IMG/VR virus record: IMGVR_UViG_3300038607_000022
Length of the DNA stretch: 39,122 bases
Source of the DNA: a virus
Direction: 5' to 3' (one strand)
The notes under the pieces are model-generated. The model had not been told where the DNA came from, searched no databases, and was given only the letters and a program-made list of their open reading frames with translations. This document shows, piece after piece, positions 1 through 39,122 of the stretch (positions are counted from its first letter, which is position 1; every line of letters begins with the position of its first letter). The position numbers and the translations under genes are program-made.

Positions 1-37
1 ACGGAGCGCTTGCGTCTCCGTTAATGAGGGTTATGAA
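1..37 (+). promoter_or_regulatory. Conserved hairpin-plus-tail element, copy 1 (same bases as 38996-39032)
   Basis: ACGGAG-CGCTTGCGT-CTCCGT hairpin followed by TAATGAGGGTTATGAA. A paralogous copy lies on the minus strand at 30040-30076 with compensatory stem changes. Confidence 0.5.
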
Positions 38-127
38 CTCATCGGAGCAGTTAAATAGAGTTTATGTAGTAATATAAATCTAAAGCTTAACTAGAGATAA
101 GAAAATGAAAACAATACAAGATACAGA
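1..127. repeat. Terminal direct repeat, identical to 38996-39122 (circular closure or assembly overlap)
   Basis: Base-by-base identity of the first and last 127 nt. The ORF starting at 105 begins inside the repeat and continues after it. Confidence 0.95.
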
Positions 128-1789: not shown

Positions 1790-1913
1790 GGAATAGTATC
1801 GCCGCTCTATATGGGCGGCAATAACACGTATCTAATGCGCAAGCTCGCGCAGTCGCATTTAGGAAGGGTTATTTACTCAACTAAAATAAATACGAAATAA
1901 TTGCATTTTATAC

Positions 1914-4910: not shown

Positions 4911-5279
4911 ATGGCTGTTATAATCGTTAGCAACCAAAGCAACATAGCAAAGGGCGAAATAGTCACTATTGTTGAAGACTCTCACCAATTTACACATAAC
5001 GAGTGTATGGCTGAGTGGATAAGTAAAGGTAATTCACCACAAGCATGGTTTAGAACCTTTTCTCTTGTTAGAGTTGCAGATAAAACAAAAGCAGAGCTAG
5101 AGTATCTTACCGAGCCACTTTATAACAACGCTACAGCAGAGCGAGAAATTTTAAATATAAGAAAGTGGTTTTTTATCGAACCGCCAGAGCAATCCCCGCA
5201 TTACATCGACCTGTTAGACAGTGGCGAAGTTTCAACCATGTTTGAAGAGTGCCTTCCTTATCTTCGAGAGCGTACGTAA
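4911..5279 (+). CDS. Hypothetical protein
   Basis: Same-strand ORF whose stop overlaps the next start (TAATG). Confidence 0.6.
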   Translation: MAVIIVSNQSNIAKGEIVTIVEDSHQFTHNECMAEWISKGNSPQAWFRTFSLVRVADKTKAELEYLTEPLYNNATAEREILNIRKWFFIEPPEQSPHYIDLLDSGEVSTMFEECLPYLRERT

Positions 5280-6754
5280 TGCCCACGCAAATAACAAAAA
5301 CAGTTAAGCCTAGCGGCGGTGACTATTCGTTGCTCAGTACGGCATTAGCGGCTGTGCCTGTTGACTTAATAGCCGCAGACGAGCAGTGGACGATAGAGTG
5401 TTACACATTTGCTGGCGGCTTGGATGATAGTGTTAGCATTAGCGGGGATAATAACGCAGACTCAACAAGGTACTGGGAAGTGGTAGCAGCATCAGGACAC
5501 GAGTACGATTATGCAACTGGTGCAGGATTTAAGCTGGATTATCAGGCGCAGGCATCTGGAGGTACTTTTTTCGCATCAACTAACAGTGATGCATATTTTA
5601 AGCTGAAAAATATCGGCATATTTAGATCAACAGTTACGAGCCAAAAACCTTTGCAGACATCGGCTGATAATATTGAAATAACAGGTTGTACTATATGGAA
5701 TAATAGTGGATCTAGAGTTGTTATGGATTTAGGATTGGTTAATGACTCGACTATAAATAATAATTTAATTATACAAGCTGGTACATACGATTGCGTCAGG
5801 TTGGATAGAGTATTTTCTGGCACTTTATTTCAGAATAATACAATTATATCGCTGGGTGGTGGCGATGCGTTTGAGCCTGATACAACTACAGCAGGGGTGT
5901 TAAAGAATAACTTATATATTGGTGGCGGTGGTTTTAATTCAAACGGTAATATATGGGATTCAGCTAGTGATTATAACGCATCTCAAGACAATACAGCGGT
6001 CGGTGGTAATTCACTGCAAAACCGCACAACAGCAGATTTAGTTGATTACGCTGGGGGAGACTATAGAACAGCGGCAAGTAGCGCATTAGCTACAGCGGGC
6101 GAAGGCGGAACGTTTATCGGTTTTGCTTTAGAGAGTGGAGGCTCTGGCGAAACCATCGTTCTTGATAGCGGCTCTTACCTTCTCAGCGGTACAGATCTAA
6201 ATCTTATAGCATCGTTAAATATATCTACGACAACAGGCAGTTACACACTAACTGGCTCTGATGCGAATTTAATAGCGGCATATAAAGAAATTGCTAACAC
6301 TGGAAATTACACACTAACGGGAACAGATGTCACTTTAGTATACACTCCCAGCGGTGGTGGTGAGTCTATAACTCTAGATAGCGGAACCTATTCGATGGTA
6401 GGTCAAGACAAAACACTGTCCGCTAATTTTGTTCTTAATGCCCAAGCTGGTAGTTATCAGCTGTCAGGAACAAACACTCCAATTAAGTATAATGGTAGTA
6501 TTCATGTTGATAGCGGTTTTTATAGCTTAACTGGCAGTGATTTAAGTCTATATTCTAACTATGTTATAATTGCATCAACAGGTGATTACGAATTAACGGG
6601 TTCACCTGTAACGCTTAGGTATTCTGGTGATGTTTTTCAGAATATCGGCGCGGTCACTGCTGGGTTTGCTGATAGCGGCATATCGACAGCATTTAAACAG
6701 GACTCTGTAACAGCAGGGTACAAAGCAAATTCAATAACAGTGAGATTTAAATAA
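5279..6754 (+). CDS. Right-handed beta-helix (pectate-lyase-like) protein with a C-terminal array of about 22-aa repeats
   Basis: N-terminal VKPSGGDYSLLSTAL and N/G/T-rich rungs. Seven GxYxLxGxDxxL repeats at roughly 6150-6630. ATG 5279 overlaps the upstream stop. Confidence 0.6.
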   Translation: MPTQITKTVKPSGGDYSLLSTALAAVPVDLIAADEQWTIECYTFAGGLDDSVSISGDNNADSTRYWEVVAASGHEYDYATGAGFKLDYQAQASGGTFFASTNSDAYFKLKNIGIFRSTVTSQKPLQTSADNIEITGCTIWNNSGSRVVMDLGLVNDSTINNNLIIQAGTYDCVRLDRVFSGTLFQNNTIISLGGGDAFEPDTTTAGVLKNNLYIGGGGFNSNGNIWDSASDYNASQDNTAVGGNSLQNRTTADLVDYAGGDYRTAASSALATAGEGGTFIGFALESGGSGETIVLDSGSYLLSGTDLNLIASLNISTTTGSYTLTGSDANLIAAYKEIANTGNYTLTGTDVTLVYTPSGGGESITLDSGTYSMVGQDKTLSANFVLNAQAGSYQLSGTNTPIKYNGSIHVDSGFYSLTGSDLSLYSNYVIIASTGDYELTGSPVTLRYSGDVFQNIGAVTAGFADSGISTAFKQDSVTAGYKANSITVRFK

Positions 6755-7188: not shown

Positions 7189-7617
7189 ATGGCAAACTTA
7201 ACTGCTAAGCAGGAAAAGTTCGCAAACGAAGTTGTTTTAAATGGTGGCGACAAAGTTGCGGCTTATAAATCCTCTGGATATAGCACTAACATGAAGTCAG
7301 ACGCAATAAGCGTCAAGGCTGATGAAGTGTATAACAACGGTAAAGTCTCGGTAAGAATAGCTGAGTTACAGAAGATAGCAGACGAAAAGGCCAAAGAGGT
7401 CTTTTCTATCAGTGTAGAGCAGCGCTTGAAGTGGTTAAACGAAGTTGCTAATGCGGGACTGTCGAAATACATAGATCCAGCCGGAAATGAGCGCAGAGAG
7501 AATCTAACTGCAGTTACCGGCGCAGTTAAAACAATGAATGAAATGCTAGGTGTTTCAGATTCTACCGGAGGCACTAAGCCCGTCAAAGTTATAGTTGGTG
7601 TGGTAGATGCCTCTTAA
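7189..7617 (+). CDS. terS: Terminase small subunit
   Basis: LTAKQEKFANEVVLNGGDKVAAYKSSGYS matches the Terminase_2 (P27-type) N-terminus. Lies immediately upstream of TerL. Confidence 0.8.
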   Translation: MANLTAKQEKFANEVVLNGGDKVAAYKSSGYSTNMKSDAISVKADEVYNNGKVSVRIAELQKIADEKAKEVFSISVEQRLKWLNEVANAGLSKYIDPAGNERRENLTAVTGAVKTMNEMLGVSDSTGGTKPVKVIVGVVDAS

Positions 7618-8920
7618 TTTAAATGTCCCTCAGTTTGAGTTTTACCAAATGGATAAGCAATTCCGAGCTTTTGTGGGAGGTTATCGGAGCGGAAAAACTT
7701 TTTTGGGCTGTGTGAGATTGTGCGCCCTGTCTTTGGAATACCCTAACATAAGGCTTGGCTACTTTGCCCCTACCTACCCTCAAATAGCTGATATATTTTA
7801 CACCACTATAGAGGAGGTCGCAGAGCTTTTTGGAATGGACTGTGAAATAAAGACAACATCAAAAGAGGTTACGTTGAGTTATTGCGGTGATGTTCATTCA
7901 GTTATCAAGTGTCGCTCAATGGAGCACCCATCAAGAATTGTAGGGTTTGATATTAACCACGCGCTTATCGATGAAATAGACACGATGAAGATAAGCAAGG
8001 CTGATGCAGCATGGAAAAAGATTGTGGCTAGGCTTTCGTCAGCGGGCTTTGATGAGCAAAGATTATACGACGAAGATATGAACGCAGACTTAATCATTGA
8101 GGCGCTAGAAGAGAACACGGTTGATTTCACCACCACGCCAGAGGGGTTTGGCTGGATTTACGATTTATTTGTTAAGCAGTTGTCGGAAGATAAAGACCTG
8201 CAAAACTATTATGGGATAGTTCACGCTTCAACGAGGCAGAATAAAAAGAACCTACAAAAAGGTTATATAGAATCTCTGTATGCGACATACCCTAGTAATT
8301 TAGTTGACGCTTATATAGACGGGAAGTTTGTTAACCTTAAGGGCGGCACGGTTTATTCGATGTTTGATCGCTCAGTTAATGATTGTGATGCCGAATGGAA
8401 CGGAAAAGAGCCACTGCACATAGGCATGGACTTTAACGTATGCAATATGAGCGCGGCTATTGCTGTTGAACGTAAAGGCGCTCTTTATTTTGTTGATGAA
8501 ATTACAGGCTCCTATGATACCCCTTCAATCATAGACACAATAAAAAGTAGGTATCAAAACTGCCAAATCAATATTTATCCTGATGCGAGCGGGAAAAATA
8601 GAAACGCCCAAGGCGCTAGTGAATCATCTATTCAGCTTTTAAGGCAAGCTGGCTTTCGGGTTCACGCACCAAATAAAAACCCATTTGTTAAAGACAGGGT
8701 TCTATCGGTAAATACAGCTTTTGATAAGCAGAGAATTTTCGTAAATGTATTAAAGTGCCCAACAATTTCATCAAACTTAGAGCAACAGGTTTACAATCAG
8801 GCGGGAGAGCCGGACAAGTCTGCCGGAACGGACCACACAAACGATGCAGTGGGCTATTTAGTGAATTACAAGCAACCTGTCAATCGCCCTGTAACACAAG
8901 TTAGACGCTTGGTAGTGTAA
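7607..8920 (+). CDS. terL: Terminase large subunit
   Basis: Walker A GGYRSGKT, a nuclease-type C-terminal half, 437 aa. Confidence 0.85.
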   Translation: MPLNLNVPQFEFYQMDKQFRAFVGGYRSGKTFLGCVRLCALSLEYPNIRLGYFAPTYPQIADIFYTTIEEVAELFGMDCEIKTTSKEVTLSYCGDVHSVIKCRSMEHPSRIVGFDINHALIDEIDTMKISKADAAWKKIVARLSSAGFDEQRLYDEDMNADLIIEALEENTVDFTTTPEGFGWIYDLFVKQLSEDKDLQNYYGIVHASTRQNKKNLQKGYIESLYATYPSNLVDAYIDGKFVNLKGGTVYSMFDRSVNDCDAEWNGKEPLHIGMDFNVCNMSAAIAVERKGALYFVDEITGSYDTPSIIDTIKSRYQNCQINIYPDASGKNRNAQGASESSIQLLRQAGFRVHAPNKNPFVKDRVLSVNTAFDKQRIFVNVLKCPTISSNLEQQVYNQAGEPDKSAGTDHTNDAVGYLVNYKQPVNRPVTQVRRLVV

Positions 8921-12299: not shown

Positions 12300-12358
12300 T
12301 TCAATCTCCTGTTTTTAACGAGTATAAACCTCAGCTTTTAATTAACAAATCCGATCAG

Positions 12359-12739
12359 TTAACTTAAATATCGACCAGAAGAAAACCAGTCTGATTTTAT
12401 TTTCTCGGCGTGCGTTAAGCATTTTAGCATGGTGTCTGCCTCTCCTTTCTCGGTTAGAGGCATCCCTTCTGGAAACATCCATCCGCCCAGTGTTGTTGTT
12501 TTTTTAGCGAATAAAAAGCGGCTCACCTTTTTGGTCGAGAATGGGACTTTAATCTTTTTGTGGTAGTAGTGATTAAAGTTGTGAGGATTGCACGTAACTA
12601 CCGAATAAACATCTCCCGCATGAAAGTCGCCATATAAAGACCTGCCATGCTTATCGTAGTAGCAAGTATCCATTGAACCGTGCTTTATTTTCTCGTCTTT
12701 GTAAATAAGCTCAAGAATCATTCTGATTATGTTGCGCAT
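12359..12739 (-). CDS. Hypothetical protein (island gene 1)
   Basis: AAGGG RBS 7 nt before the ATG. First gene downstream of the consensus leftward promoter. Confidence 0.65.
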   Translation of the reverse strand: MRNIIRMILELIYKDEKIKHGSMDTCYYDKHGRSLYGDFHAGDVYSVVTCNPHNFNHYYHKKIKVPFSTKKVSRFLFAKKTTTLGGWMFPEGMPLTEKGEADTMLKCLTHAEKIKSDWFSSGRYLS

Positions 12740-29884: not shown

Positions 29885-29940
29885 TTCACTTATCTCCTGC
29901 TGTTTTATTAAACTTAGCACAATAAATACAGTAATGTGGT

Positions 29941-29968
29941 TTGACCAGTGAGATTATTTTGCTATTAT
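29941..29968 (+). promoter_or_regulatory. Sigma70 promoter on the plus strand inside the leftward operon (TTGACC-N16-TATTAT)
   Basis: Hexamers at 29941-29946 and 29963-29968. Points away from all neighbouring genes. Confidence 0.55.
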
Positions 29969-29974
29969 TGAGTT

Positions 29975-30042
29975 GAAACTTTTATCTCCAGTTTCTATCG
30001 ATGTTTCGCCCGGTCGTGGTTAGTTGGTGGCCGGGCTTTTTT
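29975..30042 (+). ncRNA. Candidate antisense small RNA of about 67 nt
   Basis: Runs from the predicted start to the GCCCGG-N17-CCGGGC hairpin plus T6 (30008-30042). 5' hairpin GAAAC-N11-GTTTC. Contains no ORF. Confidence 0.5.
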
Positions 30043-30076
30043 ATAACCCTCACTAACAAGGACGCAAGCGCCTTGT
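30040..30076 (-). promoter_or_regulatory. Conserved hairpin-plus-tail element, copy 2
   Basis: The minus strand reads ACAAGG-CGCTTGCGT-CCTTGT TAGTGAGGGTTATAAA. Starts 10 nt after the stop of the 30086..30340 gene. Confidence 0.5.
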
Positions 30077-30085
30077 AGTTTCGAG

Positions 30086-30340
30086 TTATGTGTTCTTCCC
30101 AATGTTATAAATAGTTGCAACCTGCGAATCATTAAGTCCGCGCTTTTTCGCTCCTTCTAAAGCATTTATTACCGTTTGCACTCCATGGTGGTAAATATCC
30201 AACTCTTCGGCATCATGGTATCCACCAAGGTAATCTAAACACCCTTTAGCTATTGCTATGGCATCATCAAAACACATAACAACAGGCTCAATCGGACTTG
30301 CTGTAGTTGGGTTTTTATCTTCGTCTTGCATCTTCGTCAT
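30086..30340 (-). CDS. Hypothetical protein (start may be ATG 30331)
   Basis: Same-strand ORF. AAGGA sits closer to optimal spacing for the second ATG. Confidence 0.6.
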   Translation of the reverse strand: MTKMQDEDKNPTTASPIEPVVMCFDDAIAIAKGCLDYLGGYHDAEELDIYHHGVQTVINALEGAKKRGLNDSQVATIYNIGKNT

Positions 30341-30399: not shown

Positions 30400-30606
30400 T
30401 TATTTAACGTAACAATCGCCATCTTTCATCACTATATTTATACGCTCTATTCCAAGATCGTAAACTTTTTCATTCATACACTTTATTTCGTCCTGATAGC
30501 GCTTCTCAGCCTCGTTCCAATCCTTAACTATAGTCGGCAGGGCTTCGACATATAAAACCGCCACACTTGCGATTAAGGCGCTTATAGCTAGTAAATTCTT
30601 AATCAT
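30400..30606 (-). CDS. Signal-anchored small protein
   Basis: N-terminal hydrophobic segment LLAISALIASVAVLYV. ATGA overlap with the RHH ORF. Confidence 0.6.
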   Translation of the reverse strand: MIKNLLAISALIASVAVLYVEALPTIVKDWNEAEKRYQDEIKCMNEKVYDLGIERINIVMKDGDCYVK

Positions 30607-30755
30607 CTCGTTACCTTCAATTCCTTATCACCAATAGCTCTGAACAATTCTGAAACATTCATATTGTAATAGCTGGCTATTTGCTTTAACTGCTCTTTTT
30701 GTTTGTTTGAAACATTAACTAAAACTTGCTTTGTTTGTTTAGCTTTCTTTTTCAT
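30603..30755 (-). CDS. Ribbon-helix-helix (CopG/Arc-like) DNA-binding protein (50 aa), below the ORF-track cutoff
   Basis: MKKKAKQTKQVLVNVSNKQKEQLKQIASYYNMNVSELFRAIG shows a basic tail, a beta-strand and two helices. Hand-translated, 51 codons. Confidence 0.55.
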   Translation of the reverse strand: MKKKAKQTKQVLVNVSNKQKEQLKQIASYYNMNVSELFRAIGDKELKVTR

Positions 30756-30915
30756 GTTCAATACCGTATTTTTCACAGTAATCTATAAACGGCTGGCGAT
30801 TGTCTTTTAATAGCTCTTTAAAAACCAGCTTACATTCGTCAAGTTGGTTCTTAGCTTCTATGTATTTGCAATGCCAACGATAAGCACCTATGTATTTTGG
30901 ATCTATATTTTTCAA
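30739..30915 (-). CDS. Hypothetical protein (58 aa from TTG 30915; the ORF track extends to 30948)
   Basis: AAAGAGGAA lies 7 nt before TTG 30915. The longer start at 30948 lies upstream of the predicted -10 at 30942..30937. Confidence 0.5.
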   Translation of the reverse strand: MKNIDPKYIGAYRWHCKYIEAKNQLDECKLVFKELLKDNRQPFIDYCEKYGIEHEKES

Positions 30916-30936: not shown

Positions 30937-30972
30937 ACTATAAACCAAATTTAAATGCCATGTGGTCGGATG
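30937..30972 (-). promoter_or_regulatory. Bipartite promoter-like box CATCCGACCACAT-N17-TATAGT
   Basis: On the minus strand the box is at 30972..30960 and TATAGT at 30942..30937. Identical architecture occurs at 37892-37927 (+). Confidence 0.5.
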
Positions 30973-31007
30973 AGTGTTTGAACTTACGTTAAGGCTCGAA
31001 AGCCTAC

Positions 31008-31868: not shown

Positions 31869-31916
31869 TGCCTGATTTTATAAACTCTACGCATTAATAT
31901 AACACCAAAACCCCGT

Positions 31917-32150
31917 TTAACTGCTCCGATGAGTTAAGCCTCGCTCGATAGCTCTTTGCCGATAATGCCTAATCTGATCACTATTCAATCCAAATTTACG
32001 GCATGATTCATTAATGCCATGCTCCTCGCTATACAGCCATATCTTCCGCACTAGCTCTGGTTTTGCTTCTCTGCTGCTATTCTTGCTGCGTTTTATTTCC
32101 GGCTCTGTATTGCCTAGGGAGAATTTTTCGATTACTGATAGGTTAAACAT
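31917..32150 (-). CDS. Small HTH-type DNA-binding protein
   Basis: GINESCRKFGLNSDQIRHYRQRAIERG is HTH-like. Start overlaps the methyltransferase stop. Confidence 0.55.
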   Translation of the reverse strand: MFNLSVIEKFSLGNTEPEIKRSKNSSREAKPELVRKIWLYSEEHGINESCRKFGLNSDQIRHYRQRAIERGLTHRSS

Positions 32151-35445: not shown

Positions 35446-35531
35446 TTTATTCTCCAATAAATTATTCACACCCCAAACTCTACAACAAAAAATAGCGTTA
35501 TGTGATCCGACCAGTTAAATTAAATTTATAG

Positions 35532-35560
35532 TTGATTTATTGCGCAGGATTGGCGATAAT
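35532..35560 (+). promoter_or_regulatory. Rightward sigma70 promoter (TTGATT-N17-GATAAT)
   Basis: Hexamers at 35532-35537 and 35555-35560 in the 570-bp divergent intergenic region. Confidence 0.5.
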
Positions 35561-35566
35561 TTATTT

Positions 35567-35670
35567 GTTATTTGGAGTCGTGTCTGAATGATGAATAAGG
35601 TTTTATAGGTATTTCTGGCATTAACGACGATTAATGCACACGACCAGAGATACCCATAAAGCCTTTTTTA
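35567..35670 (+). ncRNA. Leader RNA or sRNA candidate: 22-bp hairpin plus T-run, with a 6-codon mini-ORF
   Basis: 35597-35618 pairs with 35644-35665 (19 Watson-Crick pairs, 2 G-U, 1 mismatch). Inner hairpin 35619-35636. TTTTTTATTA tail. Mini-ORF ATGATGAATAAGGTTTTATAG at 35588-35608. Confidence 0.5.
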
Positions 35671-36040
35671 TTACCTCAAATTCCCTCCAAGCAACATGCA
35701 ATTGCTGTAAAGCCGATTCGGGCATTGCATTATAAATCTGATACTGAGTTACTAGTACAATCAGACAGTGCGGCAATGTTTAAGCTGAGAGCCTATATTG
35801 GATTAATCCTTGGGTGATACTCAATAGTTTAAACGTGGAAAGCTCTGCTAGTGTCGAAAGATAAAAAGTTTCCAACCAGAAAGAAAGATTCTGGCCTTCA
35901 AAGCTCTACAGACCGCTAGGTTATTGCTAGAAGTGAAAAGCCTTTAGTTGAATTTTAATAATTCTCTTTAGGCTTATTATGCCTTTAAGATACGACATAG
36001 GTTTTGCTAGACACTTATCTATAACTAATAAGGTGATTAA

Positions 36041-37667: not shown

Positions 37668-37889
37668 ATGAGCAATGTAAAAAGTATTTTCCCTGCAAAT
37701 GATTTCAGTGTCATTTGTGATAACGCATCTAAAGAGGTCGAGTGCGGGATTATTATTGGGTATGACGAAGAAGGTGCACTTTGCGTTTATGGTGGCGGAC
37801 TGCTTGACGGTAGGCAACCCTTACAAAAGGATTGGCTGTGGATGATTGAAGCTTTCAAGTTAAAAATGATGAATGGTGATTATTGCTAA
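37668..37889 (+). CDS. Hypothetical protein
   Basis: AAGGAATAAACAAAATG initiation region. Confidence 0.65.
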   Translation: MSNVKSIFPANDFSVICDNASKEVECGIIIGYDEEGALCVYGGGLLDGRQPLQKDWLWMIEAFKLKMMNGDYC

Positions 37890-37891
37890 CA

Positions 37892-37927
37892 CATCCGACC
37901 ACATAACACTAAATAATGATATATAGT
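37892..37927 (+). promoter_or_regulatory. Bipartite promoter-like box CATCCGACCACAT-N17-TATAGT
   Basis: Box at 37892-37904 and TATAGT at 37922-37927, 30 nt upstream of ATG 37957. Confidence 0.5.
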
Positions 37928-37956: not shown

Positions 37957-38133
37957 ATGAATTATTTAACAAAACGTGAATACTACGCTGCACTGGCGAT
38001 GCAAGCTTATCTATCTGGACGACTTTCTTGGACTTATGGTCTGGATGGTGGTTGTAGCACTAAAACAGATACAGAGGTAGCTAAAGAGGCTGTAGCTTAT
38101 GCTGACGCTTTAATTAGAGAGCTTGATAAATGA
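37957..38133 (+). CDS. Hypothetical protein (58 aa), below the ORF-track cutoff
   Basis: AGGAGA RBS. Hand-translated 59 codons (MNYLTKREYYAALAMQAYLSG...). Confidence 0.6.
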   Translation: MNYLTKREYYAALAMQAYLSGRLSWTYGLDGGCSTKTDTEVAKEAVAYADALIRELDK

Positions 38134-38976: not shown

Positions 38977-38995
38977 TTCCTGCTAACACGTAATT

Positions 38996-39122
38996 ACGGA
39001 GCGCTTGCGTCTCCGTTAATGAGGGTTATGAACTCATCGGAGCAGTTAAATAGAGTTTATGTAGTAATATAAATCTAAAGCTTAACTAGAGATAAGAAAA
39101 TGAAAACAATACAAGATACAGA
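38996..39122. repeat. Terminal direct repeat, identical to 1-127
   Basis: Exact identity with the window start. Confidence 0.95.

What the first reader, a model, noticed from the sequence alone, without database searches (positions are those of the whole stretch)
37892..37927. Bipartite box CATCCGACCACAT-N17-TATAGT precedes two gene blocks on opposite strands
- The 13-mer CATCCGACCACAT is followed after exactly 17 nt by TATAGT at 37892-37927 (+) and again at 30972..30937 (-).
- Both copies are intergenic and face the downstream genes (37957 block; 30915 block including the RHH gene).
- Each predicted start point falls just upstream of a good RBS.
- The box occupies the position of a -35 element but does not resemble TTGACA.
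- This looks like an activator-dependent or sigma-remodelled promoter class, comparable in concept to MotA-box or CII-type promoters. It would be distinct from the consensus sigma70 promoters at 1914, 12800, 29941 and 35532.
- A third, partial copy (ATCCGACCAGT, 35505-35515) lies in the divergent control region. It has a TATAGT only 11 nt downstream and overlaps a weak leftward promoter candidate.
Basis: partly seen in the sequence, partly recalled or inferred. Interest (0 to 1): 0.65.

Follow-up and report, generated by a model that had tools for sequence, protein, structure and literature searches.

The report
Phage promoters built on FadR operator
The repeated "box" is one variant of a 17-bp binding site for the bacterial fatty-acid sensor FadR, placed at a fixed distance in front of at least seven promoters of this phage, which suggests the phage ties much of its early gene expression to the host's lipid status.

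Summary
In detail: CATCCGACCACAT-N17-TATAGT occurs at 37892-37927 (+) and 30972..30937 (-). Both copies are intergenic and face genes.

The 13-mer is a sub-variant of a 17-bp element that matches the FadR operator consensus aaCTGGTCnGACC(T/A)Gtt.
- The window holds seven promoters with one architecture: FadR-like 17-mer, N17, TAnnnT, then 21-31 nt to a start codon.
- At N17 there are 7 hits; shuffles give 0.88 on average, and other spacings give 0-2.
It is the leftward early promoter.
- One box (12344-12360) is 16/17 identical to the E. coli fabA FadR site.
- The geometry matches fabA and fabB, where FadR activates from the -40 region (17-mer-N18-TAnnnT).

The same class recurs in metagenomic relatives and seven times in the cultured Pseudoalteromonas phage BS5. 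No GntR-family protein, MotA/AsiA, sigma factor or phage RNA polymerase was found in the window.

Best explanation: host FadR activates these sigma70 promoters, and long-chain acyl-CoA would switch them off. Binding and activation are inferred, not shown.

The proposed novelty of the box and the phage-encoded binders are not supported.

The parts
37888..37904 (+). Promoter A, FadR-like 17-mer AACACATCCGACCACAT.
   Evidence: It matches the FadR consensus at 11/16 positions. The promoter-proximal half, read as reverse complement, is a perfect TGGTC.
37922..37927 (+). Promoter A, -10 hexamer TATAGT. It lies 17 nt after the box and 29 nt before ATG 37957.
30960..30976 (-). Promoter B, FadR-like 17-mer CACTCATCCGACCACAT.
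   Evidence: 11/16 matches.
30937..30942 (-). Promoter B, -10 hexamer TATAGT. It is followed by the RBS AAAGAGGA and TTG 30915. The RHH gene 30603..30776 lies further downstream.
35500..35516 (-). Promoter C', FadR-like 17-mer AACTGGTCGGATCACAT. It is the leftward early promoter in the divergent control region, and it sits 15 nt upstream of the -35 hexamer of the rightward sigma70-type promoter at 35532.
   Evidence: 13/16 matches on either strand.
35477..35482 (-). Promoter C', -10 hexamer TAGAGT. It is followed by a GGAG RBS and ATG 35445.
29934..29950 (-). Promoter D, FadR-like 17-mer CACTGGTCAAACCACAT.
   Evidence: 12/16 matches. The same 14-mer, CTGGTCAAACCAC, occurs in the promoter in front of the 37957 homologue in L282.
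29911..29916 (-). Promoter D, -10 hexamer TAAGTT with TGc (extended -10). It is followed by an AGGAGA RBS and ATG 29884.
31919..31935 (-). Promoter E, FadR-like 17-mer AACTCATCGGAGCAGTT. It overlaps the 3' end of the HTH gene 31917..32150.
   Evidence: (repeat I5). 13/16 matches.
31896..31901 (-). Promoter E, -10 hexamer TATATT with TGt. It lies 27 nt before ATG 31868.
39031..39047 (+). Promoter F, FadR-like 17-mer AACTCATCGGAGCAGTT. The same bases appear at 36-52 because of the terminal overlap.
   Evidence: (repeats I5/I6). 13/16 matches.
39065..39070 (+). Promoter F, -10 hexamer TAATAT (= 70-75). It lies 29 nt before ATG 39100 (= 105). The operon that follows includes Erf and SSB.
12344..12360 (-). 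Promoter G, FadR-like 17-mer AACTGATCGGATTTGTT. It is 16/17 identical to the E. coli fabA FadR site AACTGATCGGACTTGTT.
   Evidence: The fabA probe sequence is from PMC4537474 and PMC4259882.
12321..12326 (-). Promoter G, -10 hexamer TATACT. It lies 21 nt before ATG 12299.

Best explanation
The box is the operator of a FadR-type (GntR-family) dimeric regulator, most probably the host's fatty-acid sensor FadR. It sits at about -46 to -30 of sigma70-dependent phage promoters that lack a usable -35 hexamer.

Proposed mechanism:
- FadR bound at the box recruits or stabilises host RNA polymerase, as it does at the bacterial fabA and fabB promoters.
- The seven transcription units (four on the leftward arm, two on the rightward arm, one inside the structural region) would then be on when FadR is free of ligand.
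- They would be turned down when long-chain acyl-CoA releases FadR from DNA.

Shown here: the sequence class, its fixed geometry, its enrichment, its recurrence in other phages, and its match to verified FadR sites and to the fabA/fabB layout.

Inferred: that FadR itself binds, that binding activates, and that the host has fadR.
For: **1. Sequence match.**
- The published FadR consensus is the 17-bp palindrome aaCTGGTCnGACC(T/A)Gtt (PMC9329746).
- A scan of the window finds 8 strand-hits with at least 13/16 matches against 0.41 expected, and 16 with at least 12/16 against 4.06 expected.
- 22 phage sites score 11-15/16. Eight experimentally used FadR sites score 9-14/16.
- Most positions invariant or nearly so in the verified sites (C3, T4, T7, G10, A11) are also nearly invariant in the phage sites. 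G5, also invariant there, is G in only 16 of the 22 (site sequences from PMC4259882 and PMC4537474).
- Box G is 16/17 identical to the E. coli fabA site.
- The CTCATC arm of boxes A, B, E and F is the mirror of the GATGAG arm of the verified fadD site 2.

**2. Geometry.**
- All seven window sites have exactly 17 nt to a TAnnnT hexamer.
- The spacing profile shows 7 hits at N17 and 0-2 at every other spacing from 10 to 25. Shuffles give a mean of 0.88 and a maximum of 4 in 200.
- A start codon follows 21-31 nt later, with a Shine-Dalgarno-like RBS visible in most cases.
- Host promoters activated by FadR have the same layout:
  - fabA_ec 17-mer-N18-TATCCT
  - fabB_ec 17-mer-N18-TATTGT
  - S. 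oneidensis fabA 17-mer-N18-TAATCT
- FadR is described as binding the -40 region of fabA as an activator (PMC3462791; PMC3460868).

**3. Recurrence.**
- The class occurs in L052, L282 (2-3 copies), L297/L278 (3), L239 and L289.
- It occurs seven times, all at N17 and all in front of annotated genes, in the cultured Pseudoalteromonas phage BS5. Shuffles of BS5 give 0.9.
- One palindromic BS5 site (2633-2649) serves two divergent promoters, each at N17. That fits a symmetric dimer.
- The pattern AC-N7-ACCAC[AT]T-N17-TAnnnT gives 6 hits in 1.84 Mb of fetched loci, all of them these promoters, against 0.44 expected.

**4. No phage candidate.**
- No GntR-family, MotA/AsiA, sigma-factor or RNA-polymerase domain was found in the window's ORFs (precomputed Pfam hits).
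- No regulator is shared between the window, BS5 and the other carriers.

**5. Host.**
- Structural proteins are closest to phages of Alteromonadales: Pseudoalteromonas, Alteromonas and Idiomarinaceae.
- FadR is a gammaproteobacterial regulator (PMC5343134). It is annotated or characterised in Colwellia and Shewanella.
Against: - Nothing here shows protein binding or transcription starts.
They have C-A instead of the G-G that is conserved in verified sites in their promoter-distal arm.
- 9 of the 22 phage sites end in C-A-T rather than G-T-T on the promoter-proximal flank. This hints at an extra or different constraint.
- The spacing is 17 nt, not the 18 nt seen at fabA and fabB.
- Several promoters have a TGn extended -10 and might work without an activator. 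The bound protein could then be a repressor.
- The class is absent from other phages of the same host group (H105/1, HS5, PHS3, 1N2-2, R9Y2). A host factor allows this distribution, but a phage-encoded factor would also explain it.
- The host and its fadR gene were not identified.
Confidence: 0.55

Rival explanations
1. The same operator is bound by the same host FadR (or a close paralogue), but FadR acts as a repressor. The promoters would run on their -10 or extended -10 alone. FadR sitting over the -35 region would keep them off until long-chain acyl-CoA removes it, so phage early expression would be induced by fatty acids.
For: - The site overlaps the -35 position.
- 2 of 7 window promoters and 5 of 7 BS5 promoters have a TGn extended -10, which can dispense with a -35 element.
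- FadR is a repressor at most of its known targets (PMC9329746).
Against: - According to the review read, FadR sites at repressed fad promoters overlap the transcription start site, not the -40 region.
- The only known FadR sites at about -40 are activating ones.
- The spacing of about 20 independent promoters is invariant at N17. That is typical of activators, which must touch polymerase stereospecifically. Repressors tolerate variable placement.
- Five of the seven window promoters lack both a -35 match and an extended -10.
Confidence: 0.15
2. The operator is read by another protein with FadR-like specificity. This could be a different host GntR/FadR-subfamily regulator, or a phage-encoded winged-helix protein too diverged to be recognised. 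The resemblance to FadR sites would then reflect family-level specificity (TGGT-N3-ACCA) only.
For: - TGGT-N3-ACCA is a general FadR-subfamily motif (established knowledge of GntR regulators, recalled and not tested here).
- The class has a patchy distribution among phages of one host group.
- The recurring non-consensus ...CCACAT flank appears in the window, L052, L282 and L239.
- Many small window ORFs have no detectable family.
Against: - The phage sites keep the FadR-specific flanks, C before TGGT and C after it, plus the outer AAC. C3 is present in 22/22 sites and C8 in 20/22.
- One site is 16/17 identical to the fabA site, and L278/BS5 carry AACTGGTCGGATATGTT (14/16).
- The layout copies fabA and fabB.
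- No GntR or winged-helix hit of note was found, and no protein is shared by the carrier phages.
Confidence: 0.2
3. One reading: a novel phage-specific -35 substitute, recognised by a phage activator (the RHH or HTH proteins) or by a remodelled sigma factor, analogous to MotA-box or CII-type promoters.
For: - The box replaces the -35 element at fixed spacing.
- An RHH gene lies downstream of box B, and an HTH gene overlaps box E.
Against: - The box is not unique to the phage. It matches a host regulator's verified sites.
- The RHH and HTH proteins have no homologues in the held parts of L052, L282 or L297, nor in BS5, all of which use the same boxes.
- No MotA or AsiA domain was found.
- The box does not match TTGC-N6-TTGC or the MotA box.
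Confidence: 0.07
4. The repeats are not regulatory. They would be recombination scars or module-boundary linker sequences shared by mosaic phages, or chance matches.
For: - The left and right arms share three inverted segments (I1, I3, I5).
- The genomes are highly mosaic.
Against: - Only the 17-mer and the -10 hexamer are conserved. The spacers and flanks are not.
- Placement relative to start codons is constant.
- Enrichment and the spacing peak are far above shuffled controls.
Confidence: 0.03

Closest known systems
FadR-activated fabA and fabB promoters of E. coli, and fabA of Shewanella oneidensis and Vibrio
   Same: - A 17-bp FadR palindrome sits directly upstream of the spacer, in place of a -35 hexamer.
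- It lies 17-18 bp from a TAnnnT -10 hexamer.
- The box sequences are nearly identical in some cases: AACTGATCGGATTTGTT in the window against fabA AACTGATCGGACTTGTT.
- The expected logic is the same: an activator released by long-chain acyl-CoA.
   Different: - The promoters are in phage genomes, in 7 copies per genome, driving early, recombination and replication genes rather than lipid genes.
- The spacing is 17 nt, not 18.
- No FabR site lies over the -10.
- Many sites have a non-consensus CAT promoter-proximal flank.
- Binding and activation are untested.
T4 middle promoters (MotA box plus AsiA sigma appropriation)
   Same: A sequence-specific box replaces the -35 element of a sigma70 promoter that keeps a good TAnnnT -10. 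The promoters form a multi-copy class within one phage.
   Different: - The MotA box is a 9-bp non-palindromic element centred at -30 and read by phage MotA, with AsiA remodelling sigma.
- Here the box is a 17-bp dyad centred near -38 that matches a host regulator's operator.
- No MotA or AsiA is encoded.
Class II activator-dependent promoters (for example CRP or FNR centred at -41.5; lambda cI at PRM)
   Same: A dimeric regulator is centred close to -40, abuts or overlaps the -35 region, and has strict spacing to the -10.
   Different: The regulator family is different (GntR/FadR), and the centre lies at about -38.
Lambda CII-dependent promoters (PRE, PI, PaQ)
   Same: These are activator-dependent phage promoters with poor -35 elements.
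   Different: CII sites are TTGC-N6-TTGC direct repeats straddling the -35 element, and they face against lytic transcription. The boxes here are dyads that face with the operons.

Membership tests
FadR-activated sigma70 promoters (fabA/fabB type) | A 17-bp operator matching aaCTGGTCnGACC(T/A)Gtt | tested here: met
   - Window sites score 11-13/16 and BS5 sites 13-15/16. Verified sites score 9-14/16.
- Most of the positions invariant in the verified sites are also conserved in the phage sites (consensus from PMC9329746).
FadR-activated sigma70 promoters (fabA/fabB type) | Operator in the -40 region, directly upstream of an 17-18-bp spacer and a -10 hexamer | tested here: met
   - All seven window sites and seven BS5 sites have N17 to TAnnnT.
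- fabA and fabB probes show N18.
- The '-40 region' statement is in PMC3462791.
FadR-activated sigma70 promoters (fabA/fabB type) | FadR protein binds the site and is released by long-chain acyl-CoA | not testable with these tools
   This needs a gel shift or footprint with purified FadR, with and without oleoyl- or palmitoyl-CoA.
FadR-activated sigma70 promoters (fabA/fabB type) | Transcription depends positively on FadR | not testable with these tools
   This needs reporter fusions or infection in wild-type versus fadR-deleted hosts, plus 5'-end mapping.
FadR-activated sigma70 promoters (fabA/fabB type) | The host encodes fadR | not tested
   - The host was not identified.
- The closest cultured relatives infect Pseudoalteromonas and other Alteromonadales.
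- fadR is present in Colwellia and Shewanella.
T4 MotA/AsiA middle promoters | MotA box (a/t)(a/t)(a/t)TGCTT(t/c)A centred at -30, with the phage encoding MotA and AsiA | tested here: not met
   - The box sequence and position differ, as read directly. The MotA box consensus is recalled from memory.
- No MotA or AsiA family hit was found in Pfam or PHROGs scans of the early ORFs.
Lambda CII-type promoters | TTGC-N6-TTGC repeats flanking the -35 element | tested here: not met
   None of the seven boxes contains this pattern (sequences).
Single-subunit (T7-like) phage RNA polymerase promoters | A contiguous conserved sequence of about 20 bp ending at +1, with the phage encoding the polymerase | tested here: not met
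   - Conservation is bipartite, with a variable 17-nt spacer.
- The largest ORF is 767 aa and sits among the tail genes. No RNA-polymerase domain was found.

The most novel reading that the evidence does not exclude
A group of marine siphophages (this phage, Pseudoalteromonas phage BS5 and relatives) has handed control of most early transcription units to the host's acyl-CoA sensor FadR.
- Infection would proceed only when the cell is not feeding on exogenous long-chain fatty acids. Fatty acids would then act as an environmental off-switch, or timing signal, for phage development.
- A side effect is possible. Replicating phage DNA, carrying 7 operators per copy, could titrate FadR away from host fab and fad promoters and so rewire host lipid metabolism during infection.
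Probability: 0.4. Interest if true: 0.8.

Novelty: new variant of a known kind. Interest (0 to 1): 0.7.

Why it matters
**Why it would matter.** Phage promoters that depend on host regulators are known in a few cases. I know of no phage promoter class built on the fatty-acid sensor FadR, and two literature searches found none. If confirmed:
- A host metabolic signal, long-chain acyl-CoA, would gate phage early gene expression.
- There would be a simple explanation for promoters without a -35 element in these marine phages.
- Such promoters could be predicted from sequence.

**Why it is testable.** A cultured phage-host pair, BS5 and Pseudoalteromonas atlantica, carries seven such promoters. 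E. coli FadR and its assays are standard.

**For genome annotation.** A FadR consensus scan with the N17-TAnnnT rule recovers transcription units that a TTGACA/TATAAT scan misses.

Tried and rejected
**Collection scans for the 13-mer.**
- Exact-pattern scans with TAnnnT returned mostly a coding-sequence family of gut phages and chance hits. Only L052 was a true relative.
- These scans consumed the single metagenome scan and the single genome scan.

**Searches for relatives.**
- Megablast of the early region against GenBank phages found nothing.
- Five other public assemblies are 100% identical over the shared region, apart from one mismatch in one of them, so they give no variation.
- Relatives fetched through TerL and through the PAPS reductase lack the motif. 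TerL is too widely shared to define the group.
- Word-based homologue search for gene 37957..38133 found only itself. The HMMER representatives search found about 50 clusters. The 72 loci fetched with their alignment showed the 13-mer at chance level. They did contain the diverged promoters that led to the FadR reading.

**Hypotheses considered and dropped.**
- DnaA, IHF, CRP and LexA sites, alternative sigma factors (RpoH, RpoE, FliA, HrpL) and a T7/T3-like promoter resemblance were compared by eye with consensus sequences recalled from memory. All matched poorly, or no phage polymerase exists.
- An 'inverted copy' of the box in L278 turned out to be a mis-registration. Aligned as a 17-mer it is in register: AACTGGTCGGATATGTT-N17-TAGGAT.
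- The RHH proteins of the window and of L278 show no similarity.

**Other negative results.**
- Rfam and tRNA scans of the window found nothing.
- Searches for sample identifiers in the literature found nothing.
- Two papers (PMC2785586, PMC99677) that would give the exact fabA and fabB coordinates are not held.

Full report
**1. Observation**

The sequence is as described. CATCCGACCACAT lies at 37892-37904 (+) and 30972..30960 (-). Each copy is followed after exactly 17 nt by TATAGT.
- Both copies sit in short intergenic gaps and face the next gene, with a Shine-Dalgarno sequence and a start codon about 22-29 nt after the hexamer.
- An exact inverted 13-mer pair alone is not unusual in 39 kb. 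A mismatch-tolerant scan for the 13-mer gives 6 matches against 5.5 expected.
- The 19 fixed positions of the bipartite match have an expectation of about 0.006.
- Only the box and the hexamer are shared. The spacers and flanks differ.

The window is a complete genome of about 38,995 bp with a 127-bp terminal overlap. The same genome occurs, 100% identical over the shared region apart from one mismatch in one assembly, in at least five other public assemblies. Close relatives therefore give no variation.

**2. Relatives and widening of the motif**

Pattern scans of the public collections returned almost only an unrelated coding family and chance hits. There was one exception.
- IMG/VR contig L052 carries ACTCATCCGACCACAT-N17-TAGTAT in a divergent control region, 29 nt before an ATG.
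- The second gene downstream is a homologue (E = 5e-8) of the window gene 37957..38133, the first gene behind box A.
- That protein is only 35% identical between the two phages, so an exactly conserved 16-mer implies selection on the box.

I fetched loci through that small protein family and inspected the region upstream of each homologue. This revealed orthologous promoters with related but different boxes:
- L282: AACTGGTCAAACCACTT-N17-TATAGT
- L239: AACTGGTCGTACCACAT-N16-TATATT
- L278: AACTGGTCGGATATGTT-N17-TAGGAT
- a further window site at 29950..29911: CACTGGTCAAACCACAT-N17-TAAGTT

The pattern AC-N7-ACCAC[AT]T-N17-TAnnnT gives 6 hits in 1.84 Mb of fetched loci, all of them these promoters, against 0.44 expected.

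**3. Identification of the box**

The diverged boxes contain the dyad TGGT-N3-ACCA with the flanks AAC-TGGTC. The published consensus of the E. coli FadR operator is the 17-bp palindrome aaCTGGTCnGACC(T/A)Gtt (PMC9329746).

A scan of the window with that consensus gives 8 strand-hits of at least 13/16 against 0.41 expected, and 16 of at least 12/16 against 4.06 expected. It exposes seven promoters of one architecture: a 17-mer, N17, TAnnnT, then 21-31 nt to a start codon.

| Promoter | Strand | Box coordinates | Box sequence |
|---|---|---|---|
| A | + | 37888-37904 | AACACATCCGACCACAT |
| B | - | 30976..30960 | CACTCATCCGACCACAT |
| C' | - | 35516..35500 | AACTGGTCGGATCACAT |
| D | - | 29950..29934 | CACTGGTCAAACCACAT |
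| E | - | 31935..31919 | AACTCATCGGAGCAGTT |
| F | + | 39031-39047 (= 36-52) | AACTCATCGGAGCAGTT |
| G | - | 12360..12344 | AACTGATCGGATTTGTT |

It drives the first leftward gene.
- G differs at one position from the E. coli fabA site AACTGATCGGACTTGTT.
- E and F are the 28-nt inverted repeat I5/I6.

The spacing profile is sharp. There are 7 hits at N17 and 0-2 at every other spacing from 10 to 25. Shuffles give a mean of 0.88 and a maximum of 4 in 200.

I compared 22 phage sites with eight FadR sites used in published gel shifts (fadL1, fadL2, fadD1, fadD2, fadBA, fabA, fabB, Shewanella fabA; PMC4259882 and PMC4537474).
- The phage sites score 11-15/16. The verified sites score 9-14/16.
- Most of the positions invariant in the verified sites (C3, T4, T7, G10, A11) are also nearly invariant in the phage sites. 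G5 is G in only 16 of the 22.
- The CTCATC arm of boxes A, B, E and F mirrors the GATGAG arm of fadD site 2.

**4. Geometry compared with known FadR-activated promoters**

The probe sequences show three host promoters with the same layout:
- fabA_ec: AACTGATCGGACTTGTT-N18-TATCCT
- fabB_ec: GGCTGATCGGACTTGTT-N18-TATTGT
- S. oneidensis fabA: AGCTGATCGGAGTTGTT-N18-TAATCT

FadR activates fabA and fabB and is released by long-chain acyl-CoA (PMC3460868; PMC9329746). It binds the '-40 region' of fabA (PMC3462791).

The phage promoters reproduce this layout with a spacer one base shorter. That places the operator at about -46 to -30. According to the review read, FadR sites at repressed fad promoters overlap the transcription start site instead.

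**5. Independent replication**

Locus L289 is about 81% identical to the cultured Pseudoalteromonas phage BS5. BS5 (NC_031917) has seven sites of 13-15/16. All are at N17 against 0.9 in shuffles, and all lie 26-31 nt before annotated genes.

One palindromic BS5 site (2633-2649) serves two divergent promoters, each at N17. That is what a symmetric dimer would allow.

The class is absent from Pseudoalteromonas phages H105/1, HS5 and PHS3, from Vibrio phage 1.060.A, from Idiomarinaceae phage 1N2-2, and largely from Alteromonas phage R9Y2. It is a property of a subset of mosaic phages, not of all phages of the host group.

**6. Who binds the box**

Pfam and PHROGs scans of essentially all non-structural ORFs found no GntR-family protein, no MotA/AsiA, no sigma factor and no RNA polymerase (precomputed hits).

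No regulator is shared between the window, BS5 and the held parts of L052, L282 and L297. Only TerL, SSB, NinB-type proteins and the small protein of gene 37957..38133 are shared.

The window's tail and capsid proteins are closest to phages of Alteromonadales, and its G+C content is 40%, as in BS5. FadR is confined to gammaproteobacteria (PMC5343134). It is annotated or characterised in Colwellia and Shewanella.

The most economical reading is that host FadR binds the boxes. The invariant spacing, and the lack of -35 matches in most of the promoters, argue for activation rather than repression. These last steps are inference.

**7. Caveats**

- Boxes A and B are the weakest members (11/16).
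- Nine of the 22 sites end in CAT instead of GTT on the promoter-proximal flank.
- The spacer is 17 nt, not 18.
- Several promoters have extended -10 elements.
- A diverged phage-encoded binder cannot be excluded.

**8. Verdict**

The box itself is a variant of a known host operator, the class is three times larger than noticed, and the proposed phage binders have no support.

Two literature searches found no natural FadR-dependent phage promoters. I therefore rate this a new variant of a known kind. Interest is fairly high because it links phage early transcription to a host metabolic sensor, and it can be tested directly in a cultured system.

Noticed in passing
window 30040-30088 (-), 38984-39032 (+), diverged third copy about 1826-1895 (+): A conserved element of about 45-50 nt lies at the end of the gene blocks started by promoters B and A, and before the sigma70-type promoter at 1914.
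- It has an inner hairpin around GCGCTTGCG, with compensatory differences between copies (CAAGG/CCTTG versus GGAG/CTCC), and an outer stem pairing ATAAC.C with G.GGGTTAT.
- No U-tract follows.
- The copy at 30092..30036 folds with z = -4.4.
- It may be an unconventional terminator or an RNA processing site.
- Its reverse complement contains 13 nt identical to the T3 promoter core as I recall it (TAACCCTCACTAA). No phage polymerase is encoded, so this is probably coincidence.
   Followed up: partly
window 29941-30050 (+): A sigma70-like promoter (TTGACC-N16-TATTAT with TG) is followed by a hairpin (GCCCGG...CCGGGC) and a T-run at about 30019-30050. Together they could make an RNA of roughly 70-80 nt antisense to the leftward operon. 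Its -35 hexamer is the complement of GGTCAA inside FadR-like box D, so the two promoters would be back to back.
   Followed up: no
window 1-127 and 38996-39122: There is an exact 127-bp terminal direct repeat, so the window is a complete circular or terminally redundant genome. The same genome is found in ENA ERZ27296250, JGI 3300038604 and 3300038605, and Logan SRR5439156 and SRR5439171. All are 100% identical over the shared region apart from one mismatch in one of them.
   Followed up: yes
window 35470-36040: The divergent control region is 571 bp long and has no convincing ORF and no Rfam match. It contains FadR-like box C', the rightward sigma70-type promoter at 35532, and palindromes such as GCATTAA-N6-TTAATGC near 35610-35630. 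What most of it does is unexplained.
   Followed up: no
window 37957-38133: The first gene behind box A (58 aa) belongs to a family of about 50 clusters of 75-100-aa phage proteins (MKNxDxPAMP...GLTKREyFA..AMQG...YADALLxELEK; PHROG 2201, function unknown). The window copy lacks the N-terminal 25 residues or so. Members sit at the head of the operon in L052, L278, L282 and L239.
   Followed up: partly
L300 (Pseudoalteromonas phage BS5) 2633-2649: A single palindromic FadR-like site serves two divergent promoters: + N17 TAGAGT to gp03, and - N17 TATAGT to gp02.
   Followed up: yes
L052 8370-8660; L278 3300-3610; L282 3590-3840: Each relative has its own set of short iterons in the control region: TGCCC(C/G)(A/C) in L052, TGTAAG(A/G) in L278, and (T/G)TGTTCAC in L282. 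The first leftward gene also differs between L052 and L278. This looks like immunity- or operator-type specificity that is separate from the shared FadR-like box.
   Followed up: no
window 5249-6754: The 501-aa ORF just upstream of the small and large terminase genes has no Pfam hit and only weak matches in GenBank phages. The true large terminase is 7607..8920.
   Followed up: partly
L305 (Alteromonas phage vB_AmaS-R9Y2) 30550-30566; L223 3379-3395: Isolated strong FadR-like sites occur in phages that otherwise lack the promoter class: AACTGGTCTGACGTGTG in R9Y2, within the divergent control region, and AACTGGTCGGAGCAGTG in L223.
   Followed up: no
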